Source of the DNA: Nitrosopumilus sp. | GTDB taxonomy: Archaea > Thermoproteota > Nitrososphaeria > Nitrososphaerales > Nitrosopumilaceae | Assembly: GCA_965214775.1 (NCBI GenBank) | Contig: OZ243974.1 | Location: forward strand, 2,016,001-2,080,000 | DNA: 64,000 nt | Direction: 5' to 3' | Shown here: piece by piece, positions 13,812 to 62,152 of the stretch | How the letters are laid out: each line of letters begins with the position of its first letter | Position numbering within the stretch: position 1 is the stretch's first letter | Translations under genes and position numbers: made by a program | The notes under the pieces: model-generated | The model's input: only the letters and a program-made list of their open reading frames with translations | Told to the model about the DNA's origin: nothing | Database searches by the model: none

Positions 13812-14225
13812 ATGTCATCAGGACAAATGCCCCCGTGGCTCCAAGAACAGCTAATGAAGATGCAGCAAATACAGCAAAACCTTCAGTCTATCCTGACTCA
13901 GAAGCAGCATCTCGAAATTGAAAAAGCCGAGACCCAAAAGGCATTGGAGGAACTCCGAAAGGCAGGTGACGGTGATGCCGTATTCAAGCATGCAGGGGCA
14001 GTCTTGGTAAAATCCACAAAGCAAGAAATGATTGACGAGCTTGAGGAAAAGCAGGAGCTGGCAAAAACTAGGGCGACTGTGCTTGAAAAACAAGAGGAGC
14101 GCGTCAAGGAAACCCTCAAAGAGCAGGAGGCAAAAATCACCGAACTGATGAAAGGCAAGAATGCAGGCGCTTCTACTTCTACTACTACTCCACCTGCTTC
14201 TGCAGAGGAAAACCCCCGAAGATAG
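13812..14225 (+). CDS. pfdB: Prefoldin beta subunit
   Basis: Coiled coil-beta hairpin (VFKHAGAVLVK)-coiled coil. Confidence 0.93.
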   Translation: MSSGQMPPWLQEQLMKMQQIQQNLQSILTQKQHLEIEKAETQKALEELRKAGDGDAVFKHAGAVLVKSTKQEMIDELEEKQELAKTRATVLEKQEERVKETLKEQEAKITELMKGKNAGASTSTTTPPASAEENPRR

Positions 14226-14332
14226 CTTCATTCAAAGATATTCCGCCAAGATCAACTGGCTGAAATTTTGTAACCATATCAGTAGACGCTATATGAAATC
14301 TTATCTGTATCCTGTGATATACTATTACTGTT

Positions 14333-14450
14333 GGGCCTGAGAGTCGATCGGAACTTACCATGTACAAGGGTGTTCAGTAGACTGACTCGTAACAGCAGGC
14401 GGAAAGCAATGTACCGCGCAGAAGACGGTGAATGGAAGATTCCGCCCGGA
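14333..14450 (+). ncRNA. Predicted bridge RNA of IS110-B
   Basis: GAGUC/GACUC stem enclosing AUCGGAACU (14347-55) and UCAGUAG (14374-80); GCGGAA/UUCCGC stem enclosing donor-like AUGGAAGA. Confidence 0.78.
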
Positions 14451-14482
14451 TCAGGCATTTTGATCAGAAAGGAGGTGATAAC

Positions 14483-15562
14483 ATGATCAGCGTAGGAATA
14501 GACGTACACAAAAAGACATGCGTTGCAGCAGTAAAGGATGACTCTGGCAAGCTGCTAGAGCGATCCAAGTTTGAGAACAGCGTTTTGGCAACAACGAATT
14601 TTGCAACATATCTCAAGGAACAATACTGCGGACAGCTGCCAATAAAGGCAGTATGCGAGTCCACTGCCAACTACTGGATTATCGTACATGACACGCTTGA
14701 GGACTGCGGGATAGACACCGTGCTGGTGCATCCGGCAAAGGTCAAGGTGATAGCGCACGCCAAGATAAAGGACGACCGCGTAGATGCAAATATACTTGCC
14801 GACCTGCTCAGAGCAGACATGCTGCCAGAGTCGTTTGTGCCTGACAAGCACTACAGGGACCTCAGAATGCTGGGCAGGACCAGAACCGGCAAGACGGCAG
14901 AAGCCACCAGATGCAAGAACAAGATACACGCCATACTTGCAAAGTATGACTATGACCTGCCCACGCACAGCACGTTTACGATTTCTGCCATACAGCACAT
15001 CCAAGACGGGATAAAAATGTCAGAGATTGACGCGGCAACTGTGAAGATGTACCTTGATGACATCAAGAGGATACAGGATCAGATAAGGGATCTGGAGCGC
15101 AGCATTGCCTCTGTATCCGAAAGCGATACGAGGGCCAAGACGATTATGACCATGCCTGGAATAAGCCATGTCATTGCACTGACGATAATCTCTGAGATAG
15201 TCGATGTCAAGAGGTTTGCCACTCCAGAGAAGCTCGTCTCGTATGCAGGGCTGACTCCCTCGCGCAGGGACAGCGCAGACAGACACAAAGGAGGCGGCAT
15301 AACAAAGCAGGGATCCGTGTGGCTGCGCCAGGCCATGGTCAACTCGGCCACAGTCGCAGTACGAAACGACCCAAGGCTTGGTTCGATATATGAAAGGATA
15401 GGAAAGAGACGTGGATGGCAAAAGGCAAAGATTGCAGTTGCAAGACACATGCTGGAGATAATCTGGCACATGCTGACAACCGAAGAGGAGTACCGCACTC
15501 AGAACAAGGCTCTCACGCAGAGAAAGTATAAGAGGATGCATCGCATAGCAACATTGTCCTGA
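14483..15562 (+). CDS. IS110 DEDD recombinase/transposase
   Basis: SD GGAGGTGA; VGIDVHK, CESTA, KDDRVDA, MPGI, AGLTPSRRDS. Confidence 0.95.
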   Translation: MISVGIDVHKKTCVAAVKDDSGKLLERSKFENSVLATTNFATYLKEQYCGQLPIKAVCESTANYWIIVHDTLEDCGIDTVLVHPAKVKVIAHAKIKDDRVDANILADLLRADMLPESFVPDKHYRDLRMLGRTRTGKTAEATRCKNKIHAILAKYDYDLPTHSTFTISAIQHIQDGIKMSEIDAATVKMYLDDIKRIQDQIRDLERSIASVSESDTRAKTIMTMPGISHVIALTIISEIVDVKRFATPEKLVSYAGLTPSRRDSADRHKGGGITKQGSVWLRQAMVNSATVAVRNDPRLGSIYERIGKRRGWQKAKIAVARHMLEIIWHMLTTEEEYRTQNKALTQRKYKRMHRIATLS

Positions 15563-15627
15563 TTCGGAACATCACGCTGGCAAGGGTCCACGGTAGGATT
15601 AGGTACGATTTCATATGGGAGTTCCTA

Positions 15628-16721
15628 TACTGACGATCATTGAAAATTTCGCCTGATTACACGTCTTGTGAAGGTTTATAGATCTCCGCCATGGCCATTC
15701 TGACATGAACAAGACGAAAATCCTCACGGATGCCATGCGTGTGGAAAAGGATAACAGGGTTTATACCAGAATCCTGGCGGTGCGCTCCGTACTGCTTGGC
15801 AACACCACTGCACAGACCGCAGAGATTGCCGACGTGACACAGCGTACCGTACAGATATGGGTCGAGAGGTTTGAGCTTGACGGCGTTGACGGTCTCCGTG
15901 ACTCCCACAACAGGGGCAAAAAGCCAAAGGTCCCAGTCGGCAGGATAAAAAAGATCGCCATGAGGCTGCGCAGGATGGAAAAGCTCACCCCGAAGAAGAT
16001 GCGCAACTGGGTGCACCGCAAACTGCATGTCACATACAGCGTTGGAAGCATCAGAAGAATCCTGCGCACGATGGGATTCTCGCTAAAGACGTCAACCACC
16101 AAGCTGGCAAATGCTGCCGACGCAAAGGCGGTAAGACGGTGGCAAAGGGAGGCAAAAGACACGATTAGGCTTGCAAAAAGGCGCGGATTCAGGATAACCG
16201 TACAGGACGAGTCGATATTCGTCAGTACGGGAAGGGACGGCAAAAAGTTCTGGTCGCCAGTGGGGGACAGGATCGAGGTGCAACGATCCGGCAGAAGGGA
16301 GCGCGTCGTGGTATACGGAACGGTTGCAGACAACGGAACCAGGCTGATGCGCACATACGACAAGTTCAACAGCATAAACTTTGTGCGTTATCTCAAGCAG
16401 GCGCACAAAAAGTGGGGAAAGGTTCTGATTGTGATGGACAACGCAGCACAGCATAAGACCGAAAGGGTCCGCAAATACCTGGAGAAAAATCCTGACGTTA
16501 TCCTGCTGTACCTGCCGGTAGCTAGGCCGGAGCTGAGCGCCATAGAGCCAATCTGGAAGGATGCCAAGTACATGCTGGTCACATCTGCCTTTTACGATTC
16601 GGTAGATCACCTCAAAAGGGATGTCTCGGAATACTTTAGGACGTGTTCCATCAAGGTTGACATCTACAAATATCTTGAGCGCCGCGTGTAAGGGAGGCGA
16701 AATTTTCAATGATCGTCAGTA
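15628..16721 (+). mobile_element. IS630-family element (complete; transposase 15705-16691)
   Basis: 26-bp TIR TACTGACGATCATTGAAAATTTCGCC, TA flanks; QDES, MDNA..H, PELSAIE.IW. Confidence 0.93.
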
Positions 16722-16723
16722 TA

Positions 16724-16883
16724 GTCCACCTCCCGTCCTTGCTTGTTATCTCGTGCAGGAACGCGGTTCCCGCCGGCAGTTCCTTCCTTCCTTTCATACG
16801 TCTGTATGGGACTGGCAGGATCTTGGATCCTTTGGTTGAAGAAAATCGTCCCTTTTGTGATCAATTGGTAGCCGAGGATACTA
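16724..16883 (-). mobile_element. 5' fragment of IS630 element (22454 family)
   Basis: Homologous to 23440-23588, ends ...GAGGATACTA followed by CG. Confidence 0.85.
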
Positions 16884-17039
16884 CGGAATCTCCCATTCAC
16901 CGCCTGCGCGGCACGTTGCTTTCCGCCTGCTACTGCGAGTCAGCCTACTGAGCACCCTTGTACATGGCAAGTTCCGATCGACTCTCAGGCCCAACAGTAA
17001 TGTTGGATCACAGGATACGGATAAGATTTCATATAGCGT
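16884..17039 (-). mobile_element. Orphan IS110-B left end with bridge RNA (inverted second copy)
   Basis: Reverse complement closely matches 14286-14444; flank CTACTG = CAGTAG target half. Confidence 0.88.
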
Positions 17040-17282
17040 CTACTGAGATGGGCGATTATTTGAGATAGACACGGCGTACGGTTGTAACAGGTCGGGCTCT
17101 GGAAGCTCAGGCGTGAATCTTGCAATCCCGGAGGTCACTAGGGCAGCACCTCCAACCAGCAGGCTGATTTGGAAGAATCACAACACATAAAGATCGTTGG
17201 ATCTGCCTTTCCGGTATTGATCGGGGATCCTAGCATTACGGACGTGGATTGGAACAATCCCGACGTGATCCGCCTGTTTGAA

Positions 17283-17405
17283 CACATGAAGTCCAGGATG
17301 GAGGCAGTTGAAAGAGAAAACCTGCACATGAAGTCCAGGATGGAGGCAGTTGAAAGAGAAAACCTGCACATGAAGTCCAGGATGGAGGCAGTTGAAAGAG
17401 AAAAC
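17283..17405 (+). repeat. 3 x 42-bp in-frame tandem repeat (HMKSRMEAVERENL)
   Basis: Direct reading; N-terminal coiled coil of the IS66 transposase. Confidence 0.93.
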
Positions 17406-17414
17406 GAACAGCTA

Positions 17415-19602
17415 TAGCAATGATCAGAAGTCTTTGAGCCAAAACGGGATCATTCGAAAAGTATATGGATCGCCTAACCGGCGCAATGGCATGGCAAAAG
17501 AAACAGACAAAAGCCTGTCAGAGGCCATGCGCAAAGAAAAGGATGTCAAAGTCTACAAGAAGATCATGGCGCTGATGTTTGTGCTAGAAGACGACGTGGG
17601 CGTGCCTGAGACTGCAAGAAGGGTCCGGTGCAGTGAGAATTCCGTGCGCAGCCGGCCGGCGAGGTTTTCGGAGGACGGCATGGACTGCCTCCGGGATCTT
17701 CCCCGTTCCGGATGCAGGCCAAAGGTGGACAGAGAAAATATTGCCGCCATAATGGACCTGTTCACTGCATGCAAAAGTACCGATGTTATGACGGTACGCG
17801 ATGACATAAGGGATGCCACCGGGACAGAATACAGCACAGGACATGTCCGGAGAATGATGCGCCAGCACGGCCTGTCGCGCCGCAAGGTGCAAAACGTGCA
17901 TGTCAACCATGCCACCCCAAGCTCCGTATACTCGTGGCAACGGTATCTTGAAAACGTGCGGATTCCGTGCCTGAAAAGAGAGGGTTTTACGCTGGTGTCA
18001 TCTGATGAGGCGTTCTTCGTGCAGGGCGCATACGACAGATACGTGTGGGGTCCGGTCGGCACCAGAAGCGTGGCATCATATTCGGTGGACCACACAAAGG
18101 TGGCCGTGTTTGGAAGCATCACAGAAGACGGCAGAAGGCTGTTCAGGACGTTTACGGGATCGTTTAGGTCAGTGCAGTTCATACAATGTCTGGAGGCGTT
18201 GCGCGCCAAGTTTGGCAAGGTTGCCGTCTTTTGCGACAGGTGGAGTGTGCACAGATCTATTGACATCGCAGAATATCTGGCAGGTCATCCCGATATCAGG
18301 CTGATAATGATCCCGAAGGGATCGCCGTACCTCAATATCGTGGAAGAATGCTGGAACCTGGGCAAGCCTGTCGTTTTCAGGGGGATAGTGTACAGGAAAA
18401 TCAGCGAGCTGCGGCACACCATATCCGAGTACTACAGGACGGTGTCGTTTGCCCACCTTAGCATGTTCTATTGTACGAAAATTAGGTCGCACTAATTTGA
18501 GGAGGATTGCAGGGGATTACTTTAGGCTTTACCGATCAAGAAAACCGATGGTTGTAAGGCTCGAGGCAAAGCAGATCAGATACGCAGTGACGCAATGTGC
18601 AGGGGGACGAAAGCCCTCGGAGGTGGCCCCGGAGATAGGCGTCACGACAAGGCACGTCCAGCGGATGTATGCCCGGTTCAGGAAGACAGGCGACACGCAC
18701 CACGTGCCGCTCAAGCCGGGAAGGAAAAAGAGCGCCCCGGTTCCCGACGGGGACGTGCGCGCAGTCCTGGAGGAGTACAAACACAGTGCAGCAGGGGTGG
18801 TTCATACGGCCAAGAGGCTGCGAAGGCAACTCGATATAAGCTACTACGAGGTATACAGGATAATGAAAGAAAACGGGCTGGTGACGCCATCGGCTGCAAA
18901 ATCAATGCCCAGAAAATACGTCCGCTTTGAGCGCAAATACTCCAATGCCATGTGGCACGTGGACTGGCATACCATGAAGGATCCGCGCTTTGCAGGGCTC
19001 AATTTGGTCACGTTCCTAGACGACTCGTCCAGGTGCGTGACTGGTGCGGGCCTGTTCAGGGAGGCCACCTCAGAAAACGTCGTGGCGGTCCTGCGGCAGG
19101 CCGTGGCCCAGTTCGGCGCGCCTGCCACCATACTCTCAGACAACGGCAAGTGCTTTGTCGGGGCGCGCTCGGATCCGAAGAAGAAGAAGAGTCCGCCCAA
19201 GGGCGGATGGAGGCCCACTGCCTTTGAGGAGGAGCTGCTCAACTGCGAAATCGGGCTGATAAACTCCAGGCCGTATCACCCGCAGACCAATGGCAAACTG
19301 GAGAGATTCCACAGGAGCATCGAGGAGGAGATATGGAACCACAAGAGTCTGTCTGCATACATCGACTACTATAACGAGGACAGGCTGCACTGGTCGCTTG
19401 ACATCGACAACTACGAGACGCCGCTGCGGGCATTCTCCGACAGGGAGGCCACAGAAGCGATCAGGAAAAGCAACCCAAGATGGATGGAGGAGGACATTGG
19501 TGATGGTGCGACATAATTTTCATATAATACACCCACCTTAGCATGTACAAGTACATTTACAGATCGCCGGTCAAAGCCCTCAATTACTTGTGACCGTTGC
19601 TA
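17415..19602 (+). mobile_element. IS630-family element (transposase ~17491-18466) interrupted at its 3' end by IS481
   Basis: TIR TAGCAA.G.TCA, TA flanks; SDEA, CDRWSVH, SPYLNIVE. Confidence 0.87.
18467..19531 (+). mobile_element. IS481-family element (transposase 18548-19516)
   Basis: WHVD, LSDNG, YHPQTNGKLERFH; imperfect 26-bp TIR; 15-bp TSD CCCACCTTAGCATGT. Confidence 0.92.
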
Positions 19603-53953: not shown

Positions 53954-54001
53954 TAAGTGAAATGTATAGTGCGGCGTTGTCCGGAATTTTTCCAGAAATC
54001 T

Positions 54002-55247
54002 CAGTAGTTCCGATTGTGGCCTGAAAATAAGGCAAATTGACAGATTTTTATGATCACTTGGATCTATAGGGGGAACTTTTAGCAATTTCTCCATGACAAA
54101 AAGTGCCAGGGCCGCTCAAAAGCCGTACGGACACAGGGAGCGCAAGATGTTCCAGAACGCCGTCTCGGCAGTAGGCATGAAGTTCTCTGACAGACACAAC
54201 GCAATATACGATGAAACGGATGCAGCTGCGCTTCTGGCAACGATGTCCAAGGAGCGCATGTGCGCAGAACAGGCCGCAGAGATACTCCGGGACTCTGCAG
54301 GCCGCAGCCCCGGCGCCGACTGGCTGCTTGGCAAGCTGGGCCAGGTGGACTATGAGACGATGCACAAGAGGGCCGACAAGATCCTGCGCAGGACCGTCAC
54401 AGACTCCATCAAAGGTGGCCTGATTGGAAAATCCCCGATCATAGCCATCGACAAGACCAAGATCCCGCGGTACGACCGCAATCCGGACATGACCCACAAG
54501 ATAAAGTACAGGGGGCCGGGCACCCGCACGGCTGAGGCATACATCACTGCAAGAACAGTAGGACAAAAGCACCAGACGCACCTTGCGTGCCTTCCGGTGA
54601 CCAGGGACGCGTTTAACCCCGAATTCGTGCGTAAATTGCTGCAAACCATCAAGAGAATGCACATCAGGCCGCAGATGGTCCTGATGGACAAGGAGTTTTA
54701 CTCAGTTGACGTACTCAACACGATAAATAATGCAGGATTGCGGTTCATGACTCCTGCAGTATGCACCAAGGGAGTTGAGAGGGCCATACAGGAGCACATA
54801 GACGGGCACAGGGATGCAGTCAGCAAGTATACCATATCCTCTGGCAGCAGCAAGATAAGATGCAACCTGATAATACTGGAAAGGGAGGATAAAAACAAGA
54901 AAAAGTTCCACATCGCCTTTGTCACCAACATGACCAACTGCATGCCGGAGGATTTGTTTGAGCTTCCCGAGGAGTACCGCAAGAGGTGGGGAATAGAGAC
55001 CGGATACCGGGACGTCAAGAGGGCCATGCCGCGCACCTGCAGTCGGAACGATGCCATAAGACTCATACTGTTCTACCTGTCGCTTGGAATGTCTAACATC
55101 TGGATGATCGCAAGATCATGGTGCAAAAAAAAGAAGATCAAGCTCAAGGTGCTGCTTGCCCGGATTATAAGATGGTGTATGAGACCATGGAACAAAAAGC
55201 CCCCCGATCCGGGCTAGGGCAGGCCGGGGTCACAATCGGAACTACTG
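54002..55247 (+). mobile_element. ISH3-family IS (intact transposase 54093-55217)
   Basis: TIR CAGTAGTTCCGATTGTG; 5-bp TSD AATCT; YRKRWGIETGYR. Confidence 0.94.
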
Positions 55248-55342
55248 AATCTACCGATAAGCTTATAGATCATAAGCGCAGGATGCGACAACCTTATGGA
55301 TCATAGGATCGACGTCCCCGTATCAATGAAATCAAAGACCAA

Positions 55343-58874: not shown

Positions 58875-58934
58875 CCTGATGACGGTGTGGATCCCGTGCT
58901 TTCCTTTGTATAAGACATTCCATATAACACACTC

Positions 58935-59126
58935 CCCCTTTTTGATCAAAGTGTGTGCGCCCAACTGAACGGAAAACTCCCATTCGCCCTCGATTATGTG
59001 GCATTTCGTCGTCCGCCTGCTCTGAGCCAGTCTCATACACGCCCTCATATGTGGCAAGGTTACTTCGGCTCCTGGGCCCAACACGGATAATATGGCGTCC
59101 GCTACGGATAAGATTTGATATAACGT
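58935..59126 (-). mobile_element. IS110 left end C with bridge-RNA-like NCR and no transposase
   Basis: Homologous to 14286-14475 and 61970-62152; flank GTATGAG repeated inside the stem-enclosed loop. Confidence 0.78.
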
Positions 59127-61774: not shown

Positions 61775-62152
61775 GTTCCACGTTGCCTCGCAGACTGTCT
61801 GGATCTTGCGTAGTGCATGTTCCCCTTTGATCTGCCCGGCAGACTTTCTTGCTGCATCGGCCGTGTTGGAAAACTCTATCTGTCCCAGAATCTTTGCGGA
61901 ATGGTTCTTGATGGCTGCTGTACGCGTCTTTTTATGAACGCCTATTCCCATGCTGATCATTGTATCGCCTCCTTTTTGATCAAAGTGTGTGTGCCCAACT
62001 GAACAGAAAACTTCCACCCACCCCTAGCATTTCGTTGTCCCCTCCCACTCTCAACCAGTCTCTTACATGCCCTCATATATGGCAGAAGTACTTGTTCCTG
62101 GGCCCAGCATGGATAATATGGCGTCCGCTATGGATAAGATTTGATATAACGT
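61775..62152 (-). mobile_element. Truncated IS110 element D (left end, NCR, ~62 codons)
   Basis: MISMGIGVHKK...VCEAT cut by IS66; flank GTACGAG; NCR guide GTAAGAG. Confidence 0.82.

What the first reader, a model, noticed from the sequence alone, without database searches (positions are those of the whole stretch)
14280..15625. IS110-B guide predicts the TIR of an ISH3 element 40 kb away
Target loop GAGUC-G-AUCGGAACU...UCAGUAG-ACU-GACUC (14341-14388) specifies TCAGT-AG-TTCCGAT. That 14-mer occurs exactly at 54001-54014 and, inverted, at 55235-55248, the ends of the intact ISH3 IS. The element's own junctions give CAGT|AG| and |AG|TTCC before an IS630 insertion removes the rest. The guide matches three target bases (GAT) no longer present in its flank, so the match cannot be a local duplication. 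Donor-loop matches are weaker (AUGGAAGA vs junction ATGGGAGA; other guide only partly matching).
Basis: partly seen in the sequence, partly recalled or inferred. Interest (0 to 1): 0.85.

Follow-up and report, generated by a model that had tools for sequence, protein, structure and literature searches.

The report
RNA-guided IS110 element targeting ISH3 ends
An archaeal IS110-family mobile element carries a guide RNA gene whose target loop spells the tip of another transposon's inverted repeat, a natural case of an RNA-guided mobile element that settles inside other mobile elements.

Summary
The sequence facts hold. Window 14286-15619 is an intact IS110-family element: a 359-aa DEDD recombinase, AG core at both junctions and 10-bp subterminal inverted repeats. 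Its upstream non-coding region folds as a two-loop bridge/seek RNA. The target loop reads CAGT-AG-TTCCG. That is the tip of the ISH3-like IS at 54002-55247 and of 16 such tips in the genome.

Across 25 left ends, the loop's two 5-nt guide segments covary with the flanks (107/125 and 37/55 identities; shuffles 53 and 29). Three stems show compensatory changes. Relatives in other thaumarchaeal genomes obey the same rule.

- IS630 inserted at a CTAG and removed nothing. The real right flank is TTCCTAG, the tip of a second ISH3-like IS.
- Of "GAT", only G is a guide position; AU is constant.
- No intact copy sits in a TTCCGAT tip (0 of 16). All four D-class right junctions read TTCCT.

Guide order is that of IS1111-type seekRNAs, not IS621, although the RNA gene lies upstream. 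Every guide class in this genome aims at another repeated element; four of the five encode transposase-like proteins.

Verdict: real, and a new member of a known kind. Interest is moderate.

The parts
14279..14285 (+). Left target half TCAGT plus core AG. CAGTAG is the first 6 nt of an ISH3-like inverted-repeat tip.
   Evidence: The same CAGT-AG precedes 7 left ends in the genome.
14286..15619 (+). IS110-family element, 1334 bp. One of three copies in the genome with an intact 359-aa reading frame.
   Evidence: 3 full-length matches at 100, 99 and 97%. (intact frames). (PF01548 + PF02371; NF033542 at 248.6 bits, cut-off 140).
14286..14482 (+). Left non-coding region encoding the bridge/seek RNA.
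   Evidence: 14 pairs in 3 helices, 98.1% paired, 6 pairs with compensatory change. G-U pairs fit only this strand.
14291..14300 (+). Subterminal inverted repeat ATATGAAATC. Its partner lies at 15607-15616.
   Evidence: I11, 14291-14306 with 15601-15616. It covaries in family A (ATATCAAAT / ATTTGATAT).
14341..14388 (+). Target-binding loop. Stem GAGUC/GACUC. The 5' strand is AU-CGGAA-CU (14347-14355) and is complementary to AG-TTCCG. An inner hairpin spans 14356-14372. The 3' strand UCAGU-AG (14374-14380) is identical to the left flank plus core. It is followed by AC (14381-14382), a candidate handshake dinucleotide.
14398..14446 (+). Donor-binding loop. Stem GGCGGAA/UUCCGCC. The 3' strand AUGGAAG (14432-14438) reads AUGGGAG in nearly all other copies and equals the right end ATGGG plus core AG. 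The 5' strand AAGCAAUGU is only partly complementary to the left end.
14483..15562 (+). Recombinase gene (359 aa): DEDD RuvC-like domain plus Tnp domain.
   Evidence: IS621 structure 8wt6, E 4e-12; the D, E, D..D and GLTP....S motifs align.
15620..15627 (+). Core AG, right target TTCC, and TA (the first half of the CTAG used by IS630). Together with G16724 the old flank reads AG-TTCCTAG.
15628..16721 (+). IS630-family element inserted into the CTAG of the ISH3-like tip. It carries an unoccupied class-A IS110 target, TTTAT-AG-ATCTC, at 15675-15686.
   Evidence: (NF033545, 180.7 bits).
16734..16886 (+). 153-bp terminal fragment of another multi-copy IS (about 20 copies). It cuts the second IS110 left end.
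16887..17046 (-). Second, inverted left-end fragment of the same IS110 type (nt 1-153, 91% identical). It has the same guide (CGGAA / UCAGU) and its own flank TCAGT-AG (17040-17046).
   Evidence: (I1).
54002..55247 (+). Intact ISH3-like IS (type A). Both tips are CAGTAGTTCCG (54002-54012 and 55237-55247) and match the guide 11 of 11. The 5-bp duplication is AATCT.
   Evidence: NF033541 is the best hit at 134.9 bits, below the cut-off of 225.

Best explanation
Window 14286-15619 is an autonomous IS110-family (DEDD/serine) recombinase element. Its upstream non-coding region encodes a two-loop guide RNA of the bridge/seek RNA kind.

In the first loop, the 3' strand (UCAGU-AG) has the sequence of the left flank plus core, so it pairs with the bottom strand. 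[quoted passage not shown] Together they specify (T)CAGT-AG-TTCCG. The first ten bases, CAGTAGTTCC, are the shared tip of the terminal inverted repeats of two resident ISH3-like IS types. The eleventh, G, fits the 1246-bp type at 54002-55247.

In the second loop, the 3' strand (AUGGG-AG) has the sequence of the element's right end plus core. It would therefore recognise the joined ends of the excised circle.

Insertion places the element 4-6 bp inside the tip of the host IS, in one orientation, with the AG core on both sides and no target duplication.

Shown here: the anatomy, the conserved structure, guide-flank covariation, and occupancy of ISH3-like tips. Inferred from IS621, ISEc11 and ISEc21 experiments in the literature: that the RNA is made, binds the recombinase and directs recombination.

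The window copy itself sits in a tip of the second ISH3-like type (TTCCT, one mismatch to its guide). Later IS630 and other IS insertions and deletions left only 13 nt of that host IS.
For: (1) Family. PF01548 (E 6e-28), PF02371 (E 5e-23), NF033542 at 248.6 bits over a cut-off of 140. The catalytic motifs align to the IS621 structure.

(2) Guide-flank covariation in 25 left ends of two families. Left flank 5-mer versus 3'-strand 5-mer: 107 of 125 identical, shuffle mean 53.2, 0 of 10000 shuffles as high. Right flank versus reverse complement of the 5'-strand 5-mer, in the 11 copies with a paired right end: 37 of 55, shuffle mean 28.8, 44 of 10000 as high. Five guide classes each match their own flank class: TTTAT, CAAAC, CTTAT, TCAGT, GTATG.

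(3) Guide positions are hypervariable. 10 of 160 columns hold 42% of the column entropy among 16 family-B left ends.

(4) Structure. 19 left ends, 7 of them from other thaumarchaeal genomes. 14 pairs are 98.1% paired. 6 pairs have changes on both sides, against 2.3 in shuffles (0 of 500 as high). Slid controls give 30-45% paired.

(5) The target is a real IS tip. CAGTAGTTCC occurs 33 times in the genome, 31 at tips of two ISH3-like IS types. CAGTAGTTCCG occurs 17 times, 16 at type-A tips.

(6) Occupancy. One full ISH3-like type-B element (91% identical to an empty copy) has an IS110 copy in each tip. A 19-bp footprint CAGT-AG-GTACGATTTCATATGGG-AG-TTCCTAG lies in another tip. A left-end fragment is fused at its guide to TTCCGATTGTGG of a type-A tip.

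(7) Relatives L031-L046 show the same rule, for example flank TTCAC-AG with guide UUCAC-AG in L034.

(8) Both guide variants at the fifth right position (C in 5 copies, U in 3) can pair with the G of type-A tips but not with the T of type-B tips. This is read and is an inference.
Against: No transcript evidence was obtained.

The single-sequence fold is no better than shuffles (z -0.22). Rfam has no matching family.

No intact copy lies in a TTCCG tip: 0 of 16. All 4 D-class right junctions read TTCCT. The one type-A case is a rearranged fragment whose host IS is decayed.

Three of 25 left ends disagree with their left flank: genome 2169388 at 1 of 5, 1690520 at 2 of 5, 2787936 at 4 of 5 with the guide of another class. 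Two paired copies have right flanks that do not fit: 2751228 at 1 of 5 (a tandem partial copy follows) and 2634799 at 2 of 5 (chimeric flanks).

Copies are related by descent, and some sit in IS that themselves multiply. The shuffle counts therefore overstate independence.

The window copy's donor guide carries a G-to-A change (AUGGAAG).

The 5' strand of the donor loop matches the left end at only 3-5 positions, with one covarying pair: G:C in family B against A:T in family A and in L031, L033.

The window copy shares 19 nt of left flank with the copy at genome 2751228. It may have arrived by duplication rather than by a fresh guided insertion.
Confidence: 0.85

Rival explanations
1. The guide is real, but its working target is the tip of the 1.5-kb ISH3-like type B (CAGT-AG-TTCCT/C). 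The match to the 54002 element (type A, TTCCG) is a by-product of the two IS types sharing their first ten bases. The fifth right position would then be tolerant or drifting.
For: 4 of 4 D-class right junctions read TTCCT, and 0 of 16 type-A tips hold an intact copy. In other classes the outermost right positions are also often mismatched: ATCAC versus ATCTC, ATTAA versus ATTGA. IS621 tolerates a natural mismatch in its target (Durrant et al., passage read).
Against: Neither guide variant (C or U) pairs with T, while both pair with G. One left-end fragment is joined to TTCCGATTGTGG of a type-A tip exactly after the guide-encoded TCAGT-AG. Persistence at mismatched sites could be survivor bias if matched sites allow excision; that is an untested inference.
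Confidence: 0.3
2. The window copy was not inserted here by its guide. It came with its flank by duplication or recombination from a composite like genome 2746628-2751244, an ISH3-like IS with IS110 in both tips. The local junctions would then say nothing about recent activity.
For: It is 99.1% identical over 1355 nt to the copy at 2751228, including 19 nt of left flank (GTAACCATAT + CAGTAG...). The window also holds a second, inverted left end 2.7 kb away, the same two-tip layout as that composite.
Against: The flanks beyond those 19 nt differ, and the right sides differ. This rival concerns history only and leaves the guide-target relation untouched. Contigs of 4 runs from 1 study carry the same left junction, so it is not an assembly artefact.
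Confidence: 0.35
3. The loop-tip identity is not RNA guidance. It would be a captured piece of target DNA, or a protein-recognised site that happens to resemble the tip.
For: No RNA or biochemical data exist for this element. The thermodynamic fold signal is absent.
Against: The two halves lie in the element in split and inverted arrangement (reverse complement of the right half, then a hairpin, then the left half), not as a copy of the tip. The same two 5-nt windows change in step with five different flank classes. The stems keep pairing through compensatory changes. Homologous elements are shown experimentally to use such RNAs (Durrant 2024, Siddiquee 2024; passages read).
Confidence: 0.03

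Closest known systems
IS621 and its bridge RNA (Durrant et al. 2024, PMC11208160; Hiraizumi et al. 2024, PMC11208158)
   Same: DEDD plus serine recombinase with the same Pfam pair. The RNA gene lies in the left end, upstream of the recombinase. There are two internal loops, each with two guide segments that overlap on a 2-nt core, plus a dinucleotide after the 3' guide that fits the handshake rule (AC against the left end's first two bases). There is no target duplication, and the core is repeated at both junctions.
   Different: The guide order is reversed. I checked this directly on an IS621 copy of E. coli W (L048). There the 5' strand AUCGGGCCU equals the left flank ATCAGGC-CT on the sense strand, and the 3' strand GUAG is complementary to CT-AC. 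Here the 3' strand equals the left flank and the core reads AG on the sense strand. The right and left guides are 5+2 nt each (IS621: 7+2 and 2+2). The 10-bp subterminal inverted repeats contrast with 2-3 bp in the IS110 group (Durrant, passage). Protein similarity is remote (E 4e-12).
IS1111-type elements with seekRNA (ISEc11, ISKpn4, ISPa11; Siddiquee et al. 2024, PMC11187229)
   Same: The top-strand match lies 5' of the bottom-strand match in the RNA (section read). Subterminal inverted repeats fall in the 7-17 bp range. Natural reprogramming occurs among relatives.
   Different: The non-coding region is upstream of the recombinase here. In IS1111-type elements it is downstream, with few listed exceptions such as ISMtsp17 (section read). 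I did not place the protein in their tree. Its C-terminal motif reads GL.P....SA.
IS4321 / IS5075 (Partridge and Hall 2003)
   Same: IS110/IS1111-family elements that insert at one position and orientation inside the terminal inverted repeats of another transposon family.
   Different: Those are bacterial and target the Tn21-family 38-bp repeats. I know this paper only from its title in the reference lists; it is not held.
ISEc21 (Siddiquee et al. 2024)
   Same: An upstream-NCR element whose RNA-specified target lies inside other IS (section read).
   Different: Its target is a conserved coding stretch of IS3-family transposase genes, not an IS end. It has the IS621-type guide order.

Membership tests
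IS110 family (ISfinder sense, IS110 + IS1111 groups) | Recombinase with RuvC-like DEDD domain (PF01548) and Tnp domain (PF02371) | tested here: met
   E 6.3e-28 and 4.9e-23, both over the gathering scores. NF033542 at 248.6 bits (cut-off 140).
IS110 family (ISfinder sense, IS110 + IS1111 groups) | Catalytic D, E, D, D and the serine of the G..P....S motif | tested here: met
   alignment to IS621 (8wt6): GIDVHK/GIDTAK, CESTANY/IEATGTY, DDRVDANILAD/TDTVDARMLAE, GLTPSRRDSA/GLTPRRYESG. The assignment of these motifs to the catalytic residues is recalled, apart from S241, which is named in the passage read.
IS110 family (ISfinder sense, IS110 + IS1111 groups) | No terminal inverted repeats, no target duplication, same core dinucleotide at both junctions | tested here: met
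   AG occurs at 24 of 24 left junctions and at 14 of 15 right junctions (one TG). The flanks join to continuous IS sequence.
Bridge/seek RNA-guided elements | [quoted passage not shown] | tested here: met
   Expression of the RNA was not testable.
Bridge/seek RNA-guided elements | Second loop matching both sides of the joined element ends (the donor) | tested here: inconclusive
   The 3' strand AUGGGAG equals the right end plus core in most copies. The 5' strand pairs with only 3-5 nt of the left end and not with the core; one position covaries.
IS110 group (IS621/ISEc21 type) | Long non-coding region upstream of the recombinase | tested here: met
   197 nt upstream and 57 nt downstream.
IS110 group (IS621/ISEc21 type) | Bottom-strand match 5' of top-strand match in the RNA | tested here: not met
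   compared with IS621 in E. coli W and with the text of Siddiquee et al..
IS1111 group | Subterminal inverted repeats of 7-17 bp | tested here: met
   10 bp perfect, ATATGAAATC, 5 nt and 3 nt from the ends. It covaries in family A.
IS1111 group | Non-coding region downstream of the recombinase | tested here: not met
IS1111 group | Recombinase clusters with IS1111 relatives in a tree | not tested
   Plasmid tblastn gave only 'IS110 family' labels. The best hits were haloarchaeal and rhizobial at 35-38%, and enterobacterial ones at 22-27%. No tree was built.
ISH3 family (the target IS) | Transposase matches the ISH3 model | tested here: inconclusive
   NF033541 is the best hit for both types, but below the cut-off of 225: 134.9 bits and 140.7 bits. 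PF01609 DDE_Tnp_1 is met.
ISH3 family (the target IS) | Terminal inverted repeats and short target duplication | tested here: met
   17-18-nt inverted repeats and a 5-bp duplication in type A. A 4-bp duplication in 4 of 5 type-B copies inspected. That 4-5 bp is typical of ISH3 is recalled.

The most novel reading that the evidence does not exclude
A thaumarchaeal lineage of IS110-family elements combines an upstream RNA gene with IS1111-type guide order and subterminal repeats. Within one genome it has been naturally reprogrammed at least five times. Each time the new target is the terminal region of another resident repeated element: ISH3-like tips, an IS66-like tip, and sites 45-70 nt inside the ends of IS630, an IS5-like element and an unclassified 22-copy repeat.

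Only the ISH3-directed class keeps a recombinase. The other classes survive as 475-484-bp derivatives that carry only the ends and their own guide RNA, and would be moved in trans.

The elements would thus be RNA-guided hyperparasites of transposons, splitting the tips that their hosts need. The guide-encoding DNA itself appears to be used now and then as a half-site for recombination.
Probability: 0.35. Interest if true: 0.6.

Novelty: new member of a known kind. Interest (0 to 1): 0.45.

Why it matters
Bridge/seek RNAs were described in 2024, almost wholly from bacterial elements. This genome offers a compact natural experiment in an archaeon. About 25 left ends are closely related, and nearly half of their variation sits in ten guide positions. 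Each guide class sits in the site that its own guide spells.

That gives a ready-made specificity table: 5+2 nt on each side, and which positions tolerate mismatch. It also gives a set of small guide-only derivatives and DNA footprints of aberrant half-site events.

It further shows an ecological pattern: RNA-guided elements choosing other transposons' ends as landing sites. Only single bacterial cases of this were known (IS4321/IS5075, ISEc21).

It does not reveal a new mechanism.

Tried and rejected
Rfam. The whole window at gathering thresholds gave only a tRNA. 14200-15700 at E up to 10 gave nothing. No curated family covers this RNA.

Single-sequence folding. MFE -49.5 kcal/mol, z -0.22. 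The RNA has large internal loops, so I relied on covariation instead.

Expression. No RNA holder was listed among public runs.

Laying contigs of 4 runs (1 study) on 13900-17300. Unique-flank contigs cover 13900-14299 with 0 differences and end at the repeat boundary. The joints listed come from other copies, for example the right end joined to the IS630 site. No empty site was seen, and a part without cover proves nothing.

Subgroup assignment by plasmid tblastn was uninformative.

I looked for a target duplication around the ISH3-like copy at genome 1348581, to show that IS110 entered it in place. The far end of that IS is decayed, so there is no answer.

The ORFs of the 22-copy repeat that carries the class-B site gave no NCBIfam hit. 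It stays unclassified.

The idea that GTAACCATAT (shared left flank of three copies) is part of the IS110 element was rejected, because other copies lack it. It equals the first 10 nt of that 22-copy repeat. Why it lies there is unexplained.

Partridge and Hall 2003 is not held. Supplementary files were not opened. Durrant's Supplementary Data, Extended Data Fig. 10 and Siddiquee's Supplementary Fig. 2 may already show elements with this mix of features.

Not in print as far as three searches go: IS110 + ISH3 + Thaumarchaeota; bridge RNA + archaea + IS110 + inverted repeat; seekRNA + IS1111 + IS110. None listed an archaeal IS110 aimed at ISH3 ends.
Full report
WHAT IS THERE

Window 14286-15619 is a 1334-bp element. 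Its one long frame (ATG 14483, 359 aa) matches DEDD_Tnp_IS110 and Transposase_20 and NCBI's IS110 RNA-guided transposase model at 248.6 bits against a cut-off of 140. It aligns to the solved IS621 recombinase through the D, E, D..D and GLTP....S motifs.

The element is bounded by AG on both sides: TCAGT|AG|ACGCTATATG on the left and CATATGGG|AG|TTCC on the right. It has a perfect 10-bp subterminal inverted repeat, ATATGAAATC, 5 and 3 nt from its ends.

The genome holding the window is one contig of 2.83 Mb. It has three copies with intact frames and about 20 further left ends, right ends and internal-deletion derivatives.

The loop coordinates, the two exact 14-mer matches and the junctions are correct. 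The IS at 54002-55247 has inverted repeats starting CAGTAGTTCCGATTGTG and a 5-bp duplication AATCT. Its transposase is closest to the ISH3 model, though below that model's cut-off.

Two statements are wrong.

First, IS630 (15628-16721) did not remove anything. It sits in C-TA|TA-G, as do 18 of 20 IS630 ends in this genome. The earlier flank therefore read AG-TTCC-TAG.

Second, the AU of 'GAU' is the same in all 16 family-B left ends, whatever their flank. The guide spells TTCCG, and the further 'AT' match is a 1-in-16 bonus.

IS THE LOOP A GUIDE?

I aligned all left ends with their flanks. The five bases before ...AG-ACUGACUC in the RNA gene equal the five bases before the AG core in the left flank at 107 of 125 positions in 25 copies. 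Shuffled pairings gave a mean of 53.2, and 0 of 10000 shuffles were as high.

The five bases before ...CU on the other strand of the loop are the reverse complement of the first five bases of the right flank at 37 of 55 positions, in the 11 copies with a paired right end. Shuffled mean was 28.8, and 44 of 10000 shuffles were as high.

The copies fall into classes whose guides and sites agree:

| Class | Site |
|---|---|
| A | TTTAT-AG-ATCTC |
| B | CAAAC-AG-ATTAC |
| C | CTTAT-AG-ATCAT |
| D | CAGT-AG-TTCC(G/T) |
| Family A (67% identical) | GTA(T/A)G-AG-TTTAC |

Ten guide columns out of 160 carry 42% of the variation among family-B left ends.

Exceptions exist and are listed under evidence against. 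They fit guide RNAs acting in trans, or recombination between copies, but I did not test that. The copies are not independent events, so the shuffle figures are generous.

STRUCTURE

The alignment held 19 left ends: 12 from this genome and 7 from other thaumarchaeal genomes found with the protein. The outer stem of the target loop, its inner hairpin and the hairpin of the donor loop are 98.1% paired.

Six pairs changed on both sides, against 2.3 in column shuffles (0 of 500 as high). Partners slid by 1-3 columns gave 30-45% paired.

Invariant G-U pairs fit only the recombinase strand. The single-sequence energy is unremarkable, and Rfam has no family for it.

THE TARGET

CAGTAGTTCC occurs 33 times in the genome, and 31 of these are tips of two IS types. 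Type A is the 1246-bp type at 54002 (tip ...TTCCGATTGTG). Type B is a 1.5-kb type (tip ...TTCC[C/T]AG[A/G]TGTAC) whose 463-aa transposase is also closest to ISH3.

D-class IS110 copies do sit in such tips:

- Both tips of one complete type-B element at genome 2746628-2751244 are occupied.
- A 19-bp footprint lies in a third tip.
- The window copy sits in a tip of which 13 nt remain.

All four D-class right junctions read TTCCTA.

So the element at 54002 matches the guide perfectly (11 of 11, and 15 free tips like it exist). The sites actually occupied carry one mismatch.

One fragment (genome 1348670-1348581) has left-end nt 1-95 running straight from the guide-encoded TCAGTAG into TTCCGATTGTGG of a type-A element. 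This is what a recombination at the core between a type-A tip and the guide DNA would leave. An internal deletion of a copy once inserted there would leave the same.

Both guide variants at that position (C and U) can pair with G and not with T. I therefore keep type A as a cognate target. I give the rival (type B is the working target) 0.3.

GEOMETRY COMPARED WITH KNOWN SYSTEMS

[quoted passage not shown] I checked this on an IS621 copy of E. coli W. The flank is ATCAGGC-CT-TGTAT..., the RNA gene reads ...AUCGGGCCU...GUAG..., and all are on the recombinase strand.

Here the order is reversed. [quoted passage not shown] Put differently, the core is CT on the strand opposite to the gene.

Read in that frame everything else matches IS621:

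- The 5' strand is 9 nt and ends in CU.
- The 3' strand ends in AG.
- The next two bases (AC) are complementary to the two donor bases beside the core.
- The dinucleotide after the donor guide covaries with the first right-flank bases: UU with TT in family A, AU with AT in classes A-C. Class D fits at only one of the two positions.

Siddiquee et al. report exactly this reversed order for IS1111-type seekRNAs, together with subterminal repeats, but with the RNA gene downstream (sections read). The element thus mixes IS110-type position with IS1111-type order and repeats. They mention rare exceptions in position (ISMtsp17). I could not see their supplementary tree.

THE LOCAL HISTORY

Right of the window copy come, in order:

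- AG-TTCC;
- IS630, inserted in the CTAG;
- 10 nt of unknown origin;
- a 153-bp tip fragment of another multi-copy IS;
- an inverted left-end fragment of a second D-class IS110 with its own TCAGT-AG flank.

This is the layout of the two-tip composite at genome 2746628-2751244 after loss of the host IS body. The window copy also shares 19 nt of left flank with that composite. Descent by duplication is therefore a live alternative for how this copy got here (0.35). It does not affect what the guide specifies.

WIDER PATTERN

Every guide class points into another repeated element:

- Class A sits 45 nt inside IS630. There are 7 free sites, one at window 15675-15686.
- Class C sits inside the end of an IS5-like element, with 17 free sites. 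One is at window 55262-55273, in the very element into which the 54002 IS has inserted.
- Class B sits about 65 nt inside a 22-copy unclassified repeat.
- Family A sits at the tip GTAAGAGTTTACCCC of an IS66-like element, with 74 sites.

Only class D keeps intact recombinase genes. Classes A-C are truncated copies or 475-484-bp derivatives that retain both ends and the RNA gene.

VERDICT

The finding is real and the core idea is right. The mechanism and the habit of landing in other transposons are both already described for bacterial relatives. The value lies in the clean natural reprogramming series, the archaeal host and the mixed architecture.

Noticed in passing
window 16887-17046 (-): A second, inverted left-end fragment of the same IS110 type. 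It has the same guide and a TCAGT-AG flank, and is cut in its donor loop by the tip of another multi-copy IS (16734-16886). With the full copy it mimics the 'both tips occupied' composite at genome 2746628-2751244.
   Followed up: partly
window 15675-15686 and 55262-55273: Unoccupied sites for two other guide classes. TTTATAGATCTC lies inside the IS630 next to the element. CTTATAGATCAT lies inside the IS5-like element that hosts the ISH3-like IS.
   Followed up: yes
window 58928-59126 (-) and 61955-62152 (-): Left ends of a second IS110 family (about 67% identical) with guide GUAUG/GUAAG-AG and UUUAC. The 62152 copy is interrupted at about 61774 by an IS66-like element whose tip GTAAGAGTTTACCCC is itself the target that this family's guide spells.
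   Followed up: partly
genome 181547-182022, 807934-808415, 2726224-2726708, 2784518-2785002, 2831293-2831777 (loci L016, L017, L012, L013, L011): 475-484-bp internal-deletion derivatives of two types (nt 1-204 + 1049-1335, and 1-384 + 1225-1335). They keep both ends and the guide RNA gene but have no recombinase, and each has its own guide class. They are candidate guide-carrying miniature elements moved in trans.
   Followed up: partly
genome 1348581-1348670; 2788411; 1209797: Junctions that use AG half-sites inside the element. In the first, guide DNA TCAGT-AG is fused to an ISH3-like tip. In the second, the right end plus AG is fused to ACTGACTCG just after the guide of another copy. The third is a 19-bp footprint formed at an internal TT-AG. 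They resemble the half-match events described for IS621 (abstract and methods section read).
   Followed up: partly
window 14270-14279; genome 2746628, 2751244: Three D-class copies share GTAACCATAT just outside CAGTAG. That 10-mer is the first 10 nt of a 22-copy repeat. At the composite it flanks both sides as an inverted pair around a 4-bp ATAT. This is unexplained.
   Followed up: partly
window 14334-14422: Contigs in all 4 runs laid (1 study) join 14333 to 14423. This is a variant copy lacking the whole target loop, at low depth (7-87).
   Followed up: no
window 17285-17400: Three tandem copies of a roughly 42-nt unit (ATGAAGTCCAGGATGGAGGCAGTTGAAAGAGAAAACCTGCAC) inside a short frame at 17169-17417, within another IS-like element bounded by 24-nt inverted repeats at 17084 and 19995.
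   Followed up: no
genome 1874827-1874894: An ISH3-like type-B element has inserted into the target-loop hairpin of a family-A IS110 left end, so the two kinds of element interrupt each other in both directions.
   Followed up: no
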